Positions 1 through 5,229 of a stretch of DNA of 5,438 nt are shown here, in pieces. The stretch comes from a virus. Taxonomy: Duplodnaviria > Heunggongvirae > Uroviricota > Caudoviricetes. Both the position numbers and the translations under genes were made by a program. The stretch's first letter is position 1. Every line of letters begins with the position of its first letter. The notes beneath the pieces were generated by a model that saw only the letters and a list, made by a program, of their open reading frames with translations, was not told where the DNA came from and ran no database searches. The stretch lies in the IMG/VR virus record IMGVR_UViG_2778261417_000007; one strand, written 5' to 3'.

Positions 1-438
1 AACTGATGGAGATGGAAGCCACGGGAGCACCTCAAAAACACCATCATACACTAAATCAGTAAGTTGGCACCATTACCCAAAATCTCTTACTTGAGAAACG
101 GCCTATTTGAGATTTCAGTCGTGGCAGGATGATCAGTTGATTCGAGTATTGACGCATTTACGTTCTGAACGGCTGTAATAAAGTTGCGGGAGAGAAATGC
201 CGCTAGTATTTTGTAATTAATTGAATGCCGACGGTTTAATGAGAAGTCAAGAACACTACTTGTACTATAATCGTTCGATGTTAGTGAGGGTTTGATGCAA
301 AAAATGAAGTGATTGACCCTAAATTTGCGCGATCAGCGACAGATTGTACACCGAGATCCTGTGGGCTGGAATTTGCAGAGAAATACCGAAAATGATATCC
401 AATATTGTTTTCAGTTCCTACATCATACCTGATAAGGG

Positions 439-444
439 TATAAT
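439..444 (+). promoter_or_regulatory. Candidate sigma70 -10 hexamer (TATAAT) upstream of the cargo operon
   Basis: Perfect TATAAT 34 nt upstream of the ATG at 478. No convincing -35 at 16-18 bp spacing (TTCCTA at best) and no clear Shine-Dalgarno before the ATG. Weak, sequence-only call. Confidence 0.2.
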
Positions 445-477
445 CATAAAAATTAGGATAATTCAAGTTATAATTGT

Positions 478-894
478 ATGAATAAAAACGACCTTGAAGC
501 ATTATCTGACACTAGGCTTAATGAGGCCAAATGCTTGCTTGATCATGGCTTTTTTCATGGTGCATATTATCTTTGTGGGTATGCAGTTGAATGTGCATTG
601 AAGGCCTGTATTGCCAAGTCATTTTTACAACATGAGTTTCCAAACAAAAAAGTCGTAAATGATTCATATACTCATGATTTGTCGCAACTTCTCAAAATTG
701 CCAACTTACATCAAATTTTGATTGCTGACGCAAAAAATGATGTTTCGTTGGAGATTAACTGGTCGGTCGTTAAAGACTGGAGCGAGCAATTTAGATACGA
801 CAATAACATAAGTAAAGCTATGGCCGAACAATTGTTTGATGCTGTAGGTGACCAAAATTCTGGAGTTTTGAAATGGGTAAAAGCACACTGGTAA
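478..894 (+). CDS. Hypothetical protein with HEPN-like helical signature (138 aa); first gene of two-gene cargo cassette
   Basis: Intact 138-codon ORF in an AT-rich block. N-terminal segment LNEAKCLLDHGFFHGAYYLCGYAVECALKACIAKS and later SYTHDLSQLLKIA resemble the conserved helices of HEPN-fold proteins (pattern recognition, not a search). Canonical R-x(4-6)-H motif not found. Its stop overlaps the next ORF by 22 nt. Confidence 0.6.
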   Translation: MNKNDLEALSDTRLNEAKCLLDHGFFHGAYYLCGYAVECALKACIAKSFLQHEFPNKKVVNDSYTHDLSQLLKIANLHQILIADAKNDVSLEINWSVVKDWSEQFRYDNNISKAMAEQLFDAVGDQNSGVLKWVKAHW

Positions 895-1274
895 TCGGCA
901 GAGAGTTGACAAAAGATATGGAATTCTCAGGTCAATTTTTATTAAAAAAACTCAAGTTACAGAATTTAACCATTGATGCTGCAATGTGGTTTTATTACCC
1001 AGATCTATCTTGGAGATATATTTTAGTTATCAGTGACTTCTCAGAACGTGGACCGGCAGAAATATATAGAAAAATCAGTGAGATAAATAGAAACAGCATA
1101 TCAAAAAAGTATAAGCCGATACCATTAGAAGCAATTGAGGCTAAGGGGGATTCAGCTTTTATTTATAAAATGTTAAAAGGATTTGCTAGAGTCAACGATG
1201 GTAAAGTTCGCGTTTCTAATTCTATGGTAAATGGTTTAGAAATCGTTGACTGTCTGATCTATGAGTTAAAATAA
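873..1274 (+). CDS. Hypothetical protein (133 aa); second, translationally coupled gene of the cargo cassette
   Basis: ATG at 873 preceded by GGAG (862-865) at 7 nt spacing. Overlaps the upstream ORF by 22 nt in a different frame. No motif I can recognise (no NTase G[SG]...DxD, no obvious HTH). Same AT-rich composition as 478-894. Confidence 0.55.
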   Translation: MGKSTLVIGRELTKDMEFSGQFLLKKLKLQNLTIDAAMWFYYPDLSWRYILVISDFSERGPAEIYRKISEINRNSISKKYKPIPLEAIEAKGDSAFIYKMLKGFARVNDGKVRVSNSMVNGLEIVDCLIYELK

Positions 1275-1345
1275 GAAATCTCTTGCTGGGTATCATTATT
1301 GTTTAAATGACTTTTGATTTTCAATAATCAACTTGTCATAATTAA

Positions 1346-1374
1346 GTCACCGGAGTTTGAACTCCTCCGGTGAC
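1346..1374. other. Perfect stem-loop (10 bp stem GTCACCGGAG / CTCCGGTGAC, 9 nt loop) at the boundary between AT-rich cargo and the nin module
   Basis: Inverted repeat read directly from the sequence. No T-tract follows on the plus strand (TTCTGCGC); on the minus strand it is followed by TTAATTAT. Could be a boundary/processing hairpin or a weak terminator. Confidence 0.4.
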
Positions 1375-1397
1375 TTCTGCGCTAAACGGGGACGTTT

Positions 1398-1499
1398 ATG
1401 CGCACATACAATCCAAACTCTCTTCTCCCTTCACAGATGCAGAAATGCACCTGCGATATCTTGCATCCAGCGTTTGATCTCTGCGGAGGTGAAGCGTGA
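1398..1499 (+). CDS. ylcH: Small 33-codon ORF ([33 protein letters not shown]), YlcH-like position immediately upstream of ybcN
   Basis: ATG at 1398 with GGGGA 5 nt upstream. Stop TGA 1497-1499 overlaps the GTG start of the next gene (GTGA). Length and position match my recollection of the 33-aa ylcH of DLP12; sequence identity not verified. Confidence 0.4.
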
Positions 1500-3486: not shown

Positions 3487-3548
3487 AAGTGGCTTGAGGG
3501 AGCCACTTATATGTTGGGGAGGCAAAGCCTCCCGCAACATATCTTTTT
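3487..3548 (+). terminator. Tandem hairpins ending in a plus-strand intrinsic terminator (candidate tR'-like / quuD terminator)
   Basis: Hairpin 1: AAGTGGCT / AGCCACTT (3487-3508, 8 bp stem). Hairpin 2: 15 bp stem with one bulged G (3509-3523 pairing 3527-3542, loop AAA), followed by C then TTTTT (3544-3548). No T-tract on the minus strand after these hairpins. Confidence 0.6.
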
Positions 3549-3558
3549 CGTAATCAGA

Positions 3559-4641
3559 TTAGAACTGGTAAACCAGACCTACAGCAACGATATCATCGGT
3601 AGCAACGCCAGATGCTTTCGTGAAATCGCTCTTATCAATCAGGTTGATTTTGTAATCAACAAAAGTGGACATATTTTTGTTGAAGTAATAGGTTGCACCT
3701 ACATCAATATATTCAACCAGGTCCTGATCACCCCACGCACCCAAGTCTTTTCCTTTAGATTGCAGGTAAGCAACGGACGGACGCAGACCGAAGTCGAACT
3801 GATATTGTGCAACTACTTCGAAGTTTTGTGCTTTGTTGGCAATATGGTTATTACCAAAAACAGTCATGTTCTGGGTTTCAGAATAGGTGGTAGCCAGATA
3901 GATGTTGTTCGCATCATATTTCAGACCAGCTGCCCATACTTCAGCATTTTGACCAGATGCATTCAGGCTGTTGTTACCGTAGATAACCTGATTATTAGTG
4001 CGGTCAGATTTAGCATAGGTTGCACCTACACCGAATCCTTCATACTCATAAGTAGTGGAGAAACCGAAACCATCACCATTAGCTTCAGTTACGTCAGTGC
4101 GGTCATTTTTACCCTGATACTGAGCAGCAAAGTTCAGACCATCAACCAGACCAAAGAAGTCGTTGTTACGATAAGTTGCAACACCAGTGGTGCGACCAGT
4201 CATGAACACATCTGTTTGGGTCCAGGTATCGCCACCGAATTCTGGCAGAACGTCAGTCCACGCACCGATGTCATATGCTACACCGTAGTTACGGCCGTAA
4301 TCGATTGAGCCGTAGTCCCCGAATTTCAGGCCTGCAAATGCAAGACGGGTTTTGTCTTTGGAGGAGCCTTGAGATTCAGCGCGGTTGCCTTTGAATTCAT
4401 ATTCCCACTGACCGAAACCAGTCAGTTGATCGTTGATTTGGGTTTCACCTTTGAAGCCAAGACGGGCATAAGTAGTATCACCATCATCTGCATCATTAGA
4501 GGAGAAGTAGTGCTTGGCATTAACTTTCCCATATAGATCCAGCTTGTTACTGTCTTTATTATAAATTTCAGCTGCCTGAGCAGACATCGCCATCAGTACT
4601 GATGCAGCTACAGCAGAAATTGCCACTGTTAATTTTTTCAT
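3559..4641 (-). CDS. nmpC: General diffusion porin of the OmpC/OmpF/PhoE/NmpC family (NmpC/Lc-like prophage porin, 360 aa precursor)
   Basis: Signal peptide [23 protein letters not shown] then mature start [16 protein letters not shown]. Multiple aromatic-rich beta-strand motifs and a C-terminal ...VGLVYQF with terminal Phe, typical of 16-strand enterobacterial porins. Located between Q and the holin on the opposite strand, as nmpC in DLP12 and lc in phage PA-2 (recollection). Confidence 0.93.
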
Positions 4642-5229
4642 CGTGAGCCCTTTTTTTTGAACTATTATTAAAAAATGATGTCACTGCGCGATAAATATTC
4701 ATCTAATCAATGTGATTATTTCAAGATGTAAGTTTTAGTTTCTCATTTAATTTGTGAAGTAGATCTCTATTTTTATCTGAACTTTTTCTATCGAAACCTA
4801 TTTATGGCTCTTATTTGAACAAAAATAAACCTATTAGCTAATTTATATTAATGGTTGTTATTTATGGAGGTTCTATAATTCGGCAGTTTAATTTAAATCA
4901 ACTAAAAATAACGTCTGAAATTATTTATTGGTTATTTGTTGAGGTTTTCTTATGTATTTGTGGTGGTGTTTTGAACACTCGGTAGCATTCTCATAAATAT
5001 CATTCAGTGGTTTACGTACGTAAAAAATTGGTTATGCTGTTAAGAGTGGTTACTTCGTCACACAGCTTAAACCCGCCGTCGAGCTGGTTTTTCCATTTTT
5101 TGAGTCTCGATATTAGCTGATAACTCAATACCTGAGTTATTCACTGACTCCGAGTCTGTTACGTTTCTGCTTTTTTGCGATACGTTGTATTCCCTCAATT
5201 TACACCCGCTTTGTCTGCGAGGTGGGGTT
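4642..5229. promoter_or_regulatory. AT-rich divergent intergenic region: expected porin promoter (minus strand) and holin upstream signals
   Basis: About 590 bp without a convincing ORF between the divergently oriented porin and holin genes. Plus-strand candidate promoter -35 TTGAAC (4971-4976), 17 bp spacer, -10 TAAATA (4994-4999). Holin RBS GAGGTGGGG at 5219-5227. Exact promoters not resolved. Confidence 0.35.

What the first reader, a model, noticed from the sequence alone, without database searches (positions are those of the whole stretch)
478..1274. Two-gene AT-rich cargo operon (HEPN-like protein + unknown partner) in a prophage variable slot: candidate undescribed defence / toxin-antitoxin-like system
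Two small ORFs (138 and 133 aa) overlap by 22 nt, and the second has a well-placed GGAG, so they look like a translationally coupled operon. They sit in a visibly AT-rich block immediately upstream of the conserved nin recombination module. In DLP12 this slot holds different cargo (ybcL/ybcM, as I recall), and lambdoid prophages commonly carry accessory and defence genes at such positions. The first protein has a HEPN-like helical signature, a fold recurrent in abortive-infection and toxin modules. The second matches nothing I recognise. The function is entirely inferred.
Basis: partly seen in the sequence, partly recalled or inferred. Interest (0 to 1): 0.85.

Follow-up and report, generated by a model that had tools for sequence, protein, structure and literature searches.

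The report
Conserved HEPN gene pair, unknown partner
Two overlapping small genes carried as cargo in an E. coli lambdoid prophage are one copy of a widespread, uncharacterised module (a HEPN protein plus an obligate partner from an undescribed family) that most likely acts as a toxin-antitoxin or abortive-infection pair, although nobody has tested this.

Summary

The pair is near-obligate. B follows A in 80/80 genomes from many phyla and in 42/42 viral contigs, and A precedes B in 95/97 B-anchored metagenome loci. The 22-nt overlap is itself conserved, with a start codon exactly there in 74/80 loci. No third gene is conserved.

In lambdoid phages the cassette (about 432-1286, with its own TATAAT) always sits between the replication and nin genes, a slot whose cargo varies. 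Outside phages its neighbours are mostly housekeeping genes, so defence-island enrichment is not seen.

Verdict: a new variant of the HEPN two-gene module. Toxicity and defence are inferred, not shown.

The parts
415..444 (+). Promoter-like element that travels with the cassette: perfect -10 TATAAT at 439-444 preceded by GGG, and a weak -35-like TTCCTA at 415-420 (18-nt spacer).
   Evidence: Read from the sequence. The TATAAT with GGG, and an aligned GTTaCAAC element upstream, are kept in 11 of 15 diverged cassettes (74-79% DNA identity) from other lambdoid phages. The tool's sigma-70 scan did not call it, because the -35 is weak. Function is inferred, with no transcript data.
432..1286 (.). 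Approximate extent of the mobile cassette: about 45 nt of leader, gene A, gene B, and about 10 nt of trailer.
   Evidence: blastn of the window against diverged lambdoid viral contigs. Similarity starts at about q432-437 (range 410-478) and ends at about q1274-1286, unless the adjacent nin genes are also shared.
478..894 (+). Gene A: 138-aa HEPN protein of the PF05168 'HEPN-T', AF0298-like type. Invariant R13, E38, K42, H66, R106, Y107; no Rx4-6H.
862..894 (+). Dual-coding junction. A's Gly129-Val130 codons supply the Shine-Dalgarno GGAG (862-865). A's Lys132/Trp133 codons (AAA TGG) contain B's ATG (873-875). A's His137-Trp138-stop codons (CAC TGG TAA) also encode B's Leu6-Val7 (CTG GTA).
   Evidence: Read from the sequence. 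A start codon lies exactly 22 nt before the end of A's stop codon in 74/80 genome loci from many phyla (61 ATG, 10 GTG, 3 TTG). G129 and W133 of A are invariant in 103/103, and L6 and V7 of B are invariant among close relatives.
873..1274 (+). Gene B: 133-aa basic protein (pI 9.3) of an undescribed family. Predicted alpha/beta fold (H-E-E-H-E-H-E-E) with a conserved C-terminal hairpin signature, roughly IRFSxNxINGxxIEDAYIYR. It is the obligate partner of A.

Best explanation
The two genes are one copy of an ancient, self-contained, horizontally mobile two-protein module.

Gene A encodes a small HEPN protein of the PF05168 'HEPN-T', AF0298-like type. I take it to be the effector: an RNA-targeting, probably RNA-cleaving, protein. 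It would use the alternative active site in which a His from the insert between helices 2 and 3 (H66) works with the motif Arg (R106) and a helix-2 acid (E38), in place of the canonical Rx4-6H.

Gene B encodes its obligate protein partner. B's translation is locked to A's by a conserved 22-nt dual-coding overlap, so that B is made whenever A is made. I take B to bind A and hold it in check, or gate it, as a protein antitoxin or regulator would. B lacks nucleotidyltransferase catalytic residues, so it would not work by AMPylation.

In this E. coli lambdoid prophage the module rides as a 'moron' with its own promoter-like element, in the accessory slot between the replication and nin genes. There it would act as an addiction or abortive-infection type function for the lysogen.

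Shown: the pairing, the coupling, co-divergence, the HEPN fold, the conserved residues, the mobility, the slot, and that B is not an MNT.
Inferred: RNA cleavage, toxicity, neutralisation by B, expression in the lysogen, and any phage defence.
For: - Pairing is near-obligate in both directions: B lies directly downstream of A in 80/80 genome loci and 42/42 viral loci, and A lies upstream of B in 95/97 B-anchored metagenome loci. The two exceptions are an orphan and a decayed remnant.
- The junction is conserved across phyla, with a start codon at exactly -22 in 74/80 loci and the SD and ATG built from invariant A codons.
- A and B co-diverge: Mantel r 0.89, with 0/999 permutations reaching it. 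A is more conserved (52% against 34% mean identity).
- No third gene is conserved and the neighbours differ in nearly every locus. This is the behaviour of an autonomous mobile module. One locus sits in a PIN/HicB/Fic toxin-antitoxin island.
- In lambdoid phages the cassette always lies between O/P and ybcN/ninE/ybcO/rusA. It carries a conserved TATAAT, and the slot's cargo varies.
- HepS, a proven HEPN abortive-infection protein of Gifsy-1, occupies the equivalent accessory region (PMC13043305).
Against: - Nothing here shows toxicity, RNA cleavage, A-B binding, expression or defence.
- PF05168-type ('Class II') HEPN proteins have never been shown to be toxins or RNases (PMC7641770).
- A is mildly acidic (pI 5.8; family median 5.9) while B is basic (9.3; family median 8.2). 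This is not the pattern expected for an RNA-binding toxin with an acidic antitoxin.
- The gene order, HEPN first and partner second, is the reverse of HepT/MntA.
- Outside phages the immediate neighbours are mostly housekeeping genes. Only 3/137 match a defence ATPase and 2/137 an addiction-module component.
- PADLOC gives only a weak hit of A to an unpublished candidate, and nothing for B.
Confidence: 0.45

Rival explanations
1. The pair is a non-toxic accessory complex that binds RNA or nucleotides and has a regulatory or stress-related role. A would be a non-catalytic HEPN, as proposed for sacsin and MtlR. It would have nothing to do with addiction or phage defence, and the prophage copy would simply be a passenger.
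For: No canonical Rx4-6H in any of 103 sequences. Class II PF05168 HEPNs have no demonstrated toxicity. The closest structures (TT1696, AF0298, ST0689, sacsin HEPN) are not proven nucleases. Chromosomal neighbours are mainly housekeeping, for example inside a purine-biosynthesis operon in Chloroflexi. There is no clear defence-island enrichment. A is unusually well conserved for a conflict gene, at about 50% identity across phyla.
Against: The distribution is patchy, the genomic context is different in almost every genome, and the pair occurs in prophage accessory slots and in a TA island. These features fit a mobile selfish or conflict module better than a housekeeping factor. The invariant polar triad E38/H66/R106 is what is predicted for an alternative HEPN active site, and is not what is expected of an inactive binding domain.
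Confidence: 0.25
2. B is a highly degenerate minimal nucleotidyltransferase, so the pair is a derived Class II HEPN/MNT module. The MNT would have lost catalysis and would now neutralise or regulate the HEPN protein by binding alone. This concerns the origin of B and is compatible with the best explanation.
Confidence: 0.25
3. The roles are reversed: B is the effector or toxin, and the HEPN protein A is its antitoxin, sensor or substrate-binding subunit.
For: B is basic (pI 9.3) and A acidic (5.8), the usual charge pattern for a nucleic-acid-targeting toxin with an acidic antitoxin. In most type II operons the downstream gene is the toxin (general knowledge). B keeps near-invariant polar residues Y65, R113, D126 and Y130, which could form an active site. 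HEPN was originally proposed as the substrate-binding or antitoxin subunit of MNT pairs (history recounted in PMC3710099).
Against: In every HEPN two-component system tested so far, the HEPN protein is the toxin. A is the more conserved partner and carries a plausible catalytic triad. B has no similarity to any known toxin or enzyme family.
Confidence: 0.12
4. The ORFs are chance open frames in AT-rich DNA and do not encode proteins.
For: None beyond the absence of a strong Shine-Dalgarno before A and the lack of a tool-called promoter.
Against: Both proteins have hundreds of homologues across phyla with conserved residues. Both have confident structure models, with pLDDT 93-94. Synteny is conserved.
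Confidence: 0.01

Closest known systems
Class II HEPN/MNT modules (PF05168 HEPN + PF01909 nucleotidyltransferase; for example the AF0298, TT1696 and ST0689 type), as defined by Yao et al. 2020 (PMC7641770) after Makarova and Koonin
Class I HepT/MntA type VII toxin-antitoxin (SO_3166/SO_3165; PF01934 + PF01909)
   Different: A has no RX4HXY. The partner has no nucleotidyltransferase motif, so AMPylation is unlikely. The gene order is reversed, and the HEPN belongs to a different Pfam family.
HepS, the solo HEPN abortive-infection protein of Salmonella prophage Gifsy-1 (Sargen et al. 2026, PMC13043305)
   Same: A small HEPN protein encoded in the accessory region after the replication genes of a lambdoid prophage. 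It shows that such cargo can be a real defence.
AbiV of Lactococcus (HEPN RNase with an RNA antitoxin; bioRxiv 10.1101/2024.05.05.592566)
   Same: Anantharaman et al. 2013 place AbiV with AF0298-like HEPN-T proteins because both have the alternative conserved His at the same position. It is a two-component antiphage system with a HEPN effector that is tolerated by the cell.
PADLOC candidate PDC-M28 (component A; profile of 138 positions)
   Same: A and its distant relatives hit PDC-M28A at 1e-7 to 1e-10 over about 100 residues. It is a HEPN protein of the same size.
   Different: The hit is weak and partial, B matches no PADLOC model, and I found no publication on the candidate.

Membership tests
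HEPN superfamily, PF05168 (HEPN-T) | Match to the Pfam PF05168 profile above its gathering score | tested here: met
   27.8 bits against a cut-off of 22 for the window protein. 41/41 family members match, best E 6e-11.
HEPN superfamily, PF05168 (HEPN-T) | All-alpha HEPN fold superposable on solved HEPN domains | tested here: met
   [not shown]
Catalytic HEPN RNases (canonical) | Rx4-6H motif | tested here: not met
   R106 is invariant, but no His occurs at positions 108-113 in any of 103 sequences.
AF0298-like HEPN-T / AbiV-type alternative active site (Anantharaman 2013) | Motif Arg retained, a conserved His N-terminal to it from the insert between helices 2 and 3, and an acidic residue in helix 2 | tested here: met
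   R106, H66 and E38 are each 103/103. In the model, H66 lies between helix 26-46 and helix 78-87, and E38 lies in helix 26-46. Definition from PMC3710099. Catalytic activity itself cannot be tested here.
Class I HepT/MntA (type VII TA) | HEPN toxin with RX4HXY (PF01934/PF08780) | tested here: not met
   No such motif. The Pfam hit is PF05168 only.
Class I HepT/MntA (type VII TA) | Adjacent MNT (PF01909) with GSX10DXD, encoded upstream | tested here: not met
   B lies downstream. No PF01909 hit in 63 members. GP rather than GS, and no DxD. hhalign against an MNT profile gives 0.06%.
Class I HepT/MntA (type VII TA) | Neutralisation by AMPylation of a Tyr of the toxin | not testable with these tools
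   Needs biochemistry. Y107 next to R106 is invariant, but the partner lacks the transferase motif.
Class II HEPN/MNT (PF05168/PF01909) | PF05168 HEPN without RX4H, with a conserved Tyr | tested here: met
   Definition in PMC7641770.
Class II HEPN/MNT (PF05168/PF01909) | Neighbouring PF01909 nucleotidyltransferase that keeps GSX10DXD | tested here: not met
   [not shown]
HepS (solo HEPN Abi of Gifsy-1) | Stand-alone HEPN with RX4-6H and no conserved partner gene | tested here: not met
   [not shown]
AbiV (type III TA) | PF18728 HEPN_AbiV protein with an RNA antitoxin | tested here: not met
   1/41 members gives a weak PF18728 hit. The partner is a conserved protein with a confident model.
PADLOC PDC-M28 candidate system | All components match the system's profiles | tested here: not met
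   A gives 1.8e-7 to PDC-M28A, over a partial stretch. B, including three distant homologues, gives nothing.
Toxin-antitoxin module (generic, protein-protein) | Two small co-directional, coupled genes forming an autonomous mobile unit | tested here: met
Toxin-antitoxin module (generic, protein-protein) | One product is toxic and the other neutralises it | not testable with these tools
   Requires expression experiments.
Anti-phage defence system (generic) | Enrichment next to known defence genes, or a protective phenotype | tested here: inconclusive
   3/137 immediate neighbours are PtuA-like and the rest are mostly housekeeping. Only the genes immediately flanking the pair (one on each side) were scanned. 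In phages the pair lies in an accessory slot whose cargo is mixed. The phenotype cannot be tested here.

The most novel reading that the evidence does not exclude
The pair is a previously unrecognised, phylum-spanning family of HEPN-based conflict systems. A new protein fold (B) would replace the nucleotidyltransferase as the controller of a HEPN-T effector that cleaves RNA through the non-canonical His/Arg/Glu site. In lambdoid prophages of E. coli (including O157, O26 and O103 STEC), Klebsiella, Citrobacter and Acinetobacter, it would work as an abortive-infection defence that B releases on sensing an incoming phage.
Probability: 0.3. Interest if true: 0.75.

Novelty: new variant of a known kind. 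Interest (0 to 1): 0.6.

Why it matters
- PF05168-type ('Class II') HEPN proteins are abundant, yet none has a demonstrated activity. This family has an invariant E38/H66/R106 triad and lives in a genetically tractable E. coli prophage. It would make the long-standing prediction of an alternative HEPN active site directly testable.
- It shows that a set of HEPN-T proteins likely to have been counted as 'standalone' in fact has an obligate partner from a family missing from Pfam, NCBIfam and PADLOC. That partner family has at least 783 cluster representatives.
- The 22-nt dual-coding junction, conserved across phyla, is a clean example of translational coupling fixed by constraints on both proteins.
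- The cassette is present in 3.5% of complete E. coli genomes, including Shiga-toxin-type prophages. If it is an addiction or abortive-infection module, it bears on prophage stability and phage resistance in pathogens.

Tried and rejected
- **A as a HepS relative.** Rejected: no sequence match, a different motif, and an obligate partner.
- **Known defence system.** PADLOC gives only a weak hit to candidate PDC-M28A, and the name appears in no paper.
- **A conserved third component.** None was found by all-against-all clustering of 786 neighbouring ORFs.
- **Defence-island context.** Not supported by scans of the immediate neighbours.
- **Structured RNA or repeats in the cassette or its 464-nt upstream region.** No Rfam hit and no meaningful repeats.
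- **Intrinsic terminator after B.** None by the scan. The strong hairpin at 1344-1376 lacks a U-tract and belongs to the conserved nin-leader junction, not to the cassette.
- **Minus-strand ORF 281-502.** No family hit and not annotated in RefSeq, so I treat it as spurious.
- **Literature searches by accession, PHROG id and description.** Nothing found.
- **Pattern design for a B-anchored scan.** This failed twice. I replaced it with a hand-made degenerate pattern for IEDAYIYR.
- **Apparent A-B fusion in L085.** Not used as evidence, because a single-base assembly error cannot be excluded in this metagenome-assembled genome, whose sequencing method the tool outputs do not give.

Full report
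**1.

The window contains ORF A at 478-894 (138 aa) and ORF B at 873-1274 (133 aa), on the + strand, overlapping by 22 nt. A GGAG at 862-865 lies 7 nt before B's ATG. GC content is 0.32-0.39 across 400-1400, against 0.47-0.55 in the genes that follow. Those genes are ybcN/NinB-like, ninE, ybcO, rusA, ylcG, the Q antiterminator and, on the other strand, an intact ompC/nmpC-like porin.

An identical stretch lies in an E. coli lambdoid prophage integrated next to ybhC. There the order is int-xis ... exo-bet-gam ... repressor/cro/YdaT-O-P-ren-'TagO'-[A-B]-ylcH-ybcN-ninE-ybcO-rusA-ylcG-quuD-porin-lysis-terminase-head. RefSeq calls A a 'HEPN domain-containing protein' and B 'hypothetical protein'. 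The cassette is present at 99% identity or more in 190 of 5,426 complete E. coli genomes. These include O26, O103 and O157:H7 strains; in the O157:H7 strain it sits in a prophage with tRNA genes after Q, a layout I recognise as typical of Shiga-toxin phages.

**2. Protein A is a real HEPN protein of the PF05168 kind, without the canonical RNase motif**

Across 103 sequences R13, E38, K42, H66, R106 and Y107 are invariant, and no His follows R106 at +4 to +6. Anantharaman et al. 2013 (PMC3710099) described this pattern for AF0298-like 'HEPN-T' proteins and AbiV. The motif His is missing and the Arg is kept. A second conserved His, from the insert between helices 2 and 3, was predicted to form an alternative active site together with a helix-2 acid. 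In the model, H66 lies in that insert and E38 in helix 2. Whether this site cleaves RNA has not been shown for any PF05168 protein. Yao et al. 2020 (PMC7641770) state that these 'Class II' modules have had no biochemical study.

**3. Protein B belongs to a large family that no library describes**

B has no significant hit in Pfam, NCBIfam or PADLOC, and only PHROG 5760 'unknown function'. A Pfam scan of 63 diverse members shows no consistent signal. Sequence and profile searches of the PDB find nothing.

The word-indexed search found only 32 close clusters, in Escherichia, Klebsiella, Citrobacter and Acinetobacter. The exhaustive profile search found 783 representatives at E of 0.001 or less, nearly all 125-140 aa. 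The family signature is W39, W47, G60(P), Y65, R113, D126, Y130, and a C-terminal hairpin reading roughly IRFSxNxINGxxIEDAYIYR.

The model is confident (pLDDT 93.4), with the order helix, two strands, helix, strand, helix, two strands.

**4. Is B a diverged MNT nucleotidyltransferase?**

PF05168 HEPNs normally pair with MNTs, so this was the key test.

- Against: Foldseek finds nothing significant (best E 0.19, TM at most 0.40).
- Against: I built an MNT profile from relatives of HI0073, after confirming that my recalled sequence is identical to PDB 1no5_A. hhalign against the B profile gave a probability of 0.06%.
- Against: the defining GSX10DXD is absent. The motif is GP in 78 and GS in 6 of 103 sequences, and there is no DxD ten residues on.

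B therefore cannot be filed as an MNT. A very degenerate, non-catalytic nucleotidyltransferase-like fold remains possible but unproven.

**5. The two genes form an obligate, ancient pair**

The phyla include Acidobacteriota, Chloroflexota, Desulfobacterota, Bacteroidota, Planctomycetota, Nitrospirota, Verrucomicrobiota, Spirochaetota and several proteobacterial classes.

- In all 80 retained loci a B homologue lies directly downstream on the same strand. The same is true of all 42 viral contigs.
- In the reverse direction, a degenerate DNA pattern for B's IEDAYIYR motif pulled 120 metagenome loci, of which 111 encode true B homologues. Of the 97 with room upstream, 95 have A upstream.
- The two exceptions are an orphan B and a decayed remnant that still shows the tail of A.
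- A and B co-diverge (Mantel r 0.89, 0/999 permutations), and A is the more conserved partner (52% against 34% mean pairwise identity).
- No third gene is conserved. The largest neighbour cluster occurs in 7 of 80 loci, at no fixed position.

**6. The overlap itself is conserved**

In 74 of 80 genome loci a start codon (61 ATG, 10 GTG, 3 TTG) lies exactly 22 nt before the end of A's stop codon. Reading the window:

- A's Gly129-Val130 codons (GGA GTT) supply the GGAG.
- A's Lys132-Trp133 codons (AAA TGG) contain B's ATG.
- A's His137-Trp138-stop codons (CAC TGG TAA) are read in B's frame as Leu6-Val7 (CTG GTA).

G129 and W133 of A are invariant in 103/103, and L6 and V7 of B are invariant among close relatives. 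This is strong comparative evidence for tight translational coupling, which fits two proteins that must be made together.

One locus (L085) reads as an in-frame A-B fusion. It comes from a metagenome-assembled genome, and a single-base assembly error cannot be excluded, so I give it no weight.

**7. Context**

In lambdoid (pro)phage contigs the pair always lies between the replication genes and the ybcN/ninE/ybcO/rusA block, even where A has diverged to 58% identity. DNA similarity between diverged cassettes runs from about window 432 to about 1286. The mobile unit is therefore the two genes, plus about 45 nt of leader and about 10 nt of trailer.

That leader holds a perfect TATAAT (439-444) preceded by GGG. 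It is kept in 11 of 15 diverged cassettes, with an aligned GTTaCAAC element about 18 nt upstream. This suggests a promoter that travels with the genes, although the tool's scan did not call it and I have no transcript data.

The slot is variable:

| Prophage | Cargo in the slot |
|---|---|
| K-12 DLP12 | emrE, ylcJ, ybcK, ybcL, ybcM |
| MB98 | YajG-like lipoprotein + a hypothetical gene |
| 30821_1#117 (degraded prophage) | an inverse autotransporter + a hydrolase |

The conserved hairpin-ylcH-ybcN junction downstream is in 2,953 of 5,426 genomes, against 190 for the cassette. The slot's cargo is mixed, not specifically defensive.

Outside phages the pair sits in unrelated places. It lies inside a purine-biosynthesis operon in Chloroflexi, between housekeeping genes in Catalinimonas, and in a PIN/HicB/Fic toxin-antitoxin island in a Woeseiaceae genome. 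Of 137 immediate neighbours, 3 match the Septu ATPase PtuA and 2 match an addiction-module component. The rest are mostly housekeeping families. This is the pattern of a small autonomous mobile module, and it does not show defence-island enrichment.

**8. What it most likely is**

The best-supported reading is a two-protein HEPN module of the toxin-antitoxin or abortive-infection kind. A would be the effector, using the alternative His/Arg/Glu site. B would be a co-translated protein partner that binds and restrains or gates A. Enzymatic AMPylation is unlikely, because B has no transferase motif. In the prophage it would act as a moron conferring addiction or abortive infection.

The closest proven analogue by position is HepS of Gifsy-1, which is encoded in the equivalent accessory region (PMC13043305). 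HepS, however, is solo and has a canonical motif.

Weaknesses of this reading:

- No PF05168 HEPN has been shown to be toxic.
- A is acidic and B basic.
- The gene order is the reverse of HepT/MntA.
- There is no defence enrichment.

I put this reading at 0.45. The non-toxic RNA- or nucleotide-binding complex gets 0.25, reversed roles 0.12, and chance ORFs 0.01. The idea that B is a pseudo-nucleotidyltransferase by descent (0.25) concerns origin and is compatible with the main reading.

**9. Novelty**

Neither protein, the PHROG ids nor the PADLOC candidate name appear in the searchable literature. [quoted passage not shown]

The module is a new variant of a known kind: a HEPN two-gene module whose partner is not an MNT. 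It is not categorically new, and its function is untested.

Noticed in passing
window 1314-1376 (+): Just past the cassette there is a promoter-like site (TTGATT, 17-nt spacer, CATAAT with an upstream TG; 1314-1342), followed by a 12-bp perfect hairpin (1344-1355 / 1365-1376; fold z-score -4.0) with no U-tract. Phage 82's record annotates the homologous elements as a putative -35/-10 and a 'possible regulator-binding site' ahead of orf33 (ylcH). The junction is present in 2,953 of 5,426 E. coli genomes.
   Followed up: partly
L090-L102 (viral contigs), about 1.3 kb upstream of gene A; corresponds to window 1338-1475: Several E. coli prophages carry a second copy (84-88% identity) of the hairpin/ylcH-leader segment upstream of the cassette, so the cargo is bracketed by direct repeats of this junction. 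That would fit cargo modules being swapped by homologous recombination at a conserved linker.
   Followed up: partly
window 14-477: A 464-nt AT-rich stretch with no annotated gene lies between the 'TagO'-like gene and gene A. The E. coli cassettes share it from about position 78-93, but more distant cassettes do not. It has no Rfam match. The 73-aa minus-strand ORF at 281-502 has no family hit and is not annotated.
   Followed up: partly
window 3559-4641 (-): An intact 360-aa OmpC/NmpC-type porin gene (Pfam Porin_1, E 1e-153) sits between Q and the lysis genes. In K-12 DLP12 the equivalent nmpC is split by IS5. The 265-aa + strand ORF at 3511-4308 is its antisense shadow.
   Followed up: no
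window 4600-5000: A very AT-rich stretch (GC 0.25-0.30) lies between the porin gene and the lysis cassette, with no long ORF.
   Followed up: no
L085 5953-6777: In one Bryobacterales metagenome-assembled genome, A and B read as a single 274-aa fusion joined exactly at B's start (…HGVMK-LGQALWV…). This could be a natural fusion or a single-base assembly error.
   Followed up: partly
L006-L008 (Chloroflexota), 4001-4800 of L006: In Chloroflexi the pair is inserted between purM and purH inside a purine-biosynthesis gene string, on the same strand with short gaps. That is an odd home for a conflict module.
   Followed up: no
L001 14220-14714 (ends at window 13): The gene just upstream in this prophage is annotated 'type VI secretion system-associated protein TagO'. 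This is an unexpected label for lambdoid prophage cargo, and the gene is present in only some cassette-bearing prophages.
   Followed up: no
[not shown]
   Followed up: no
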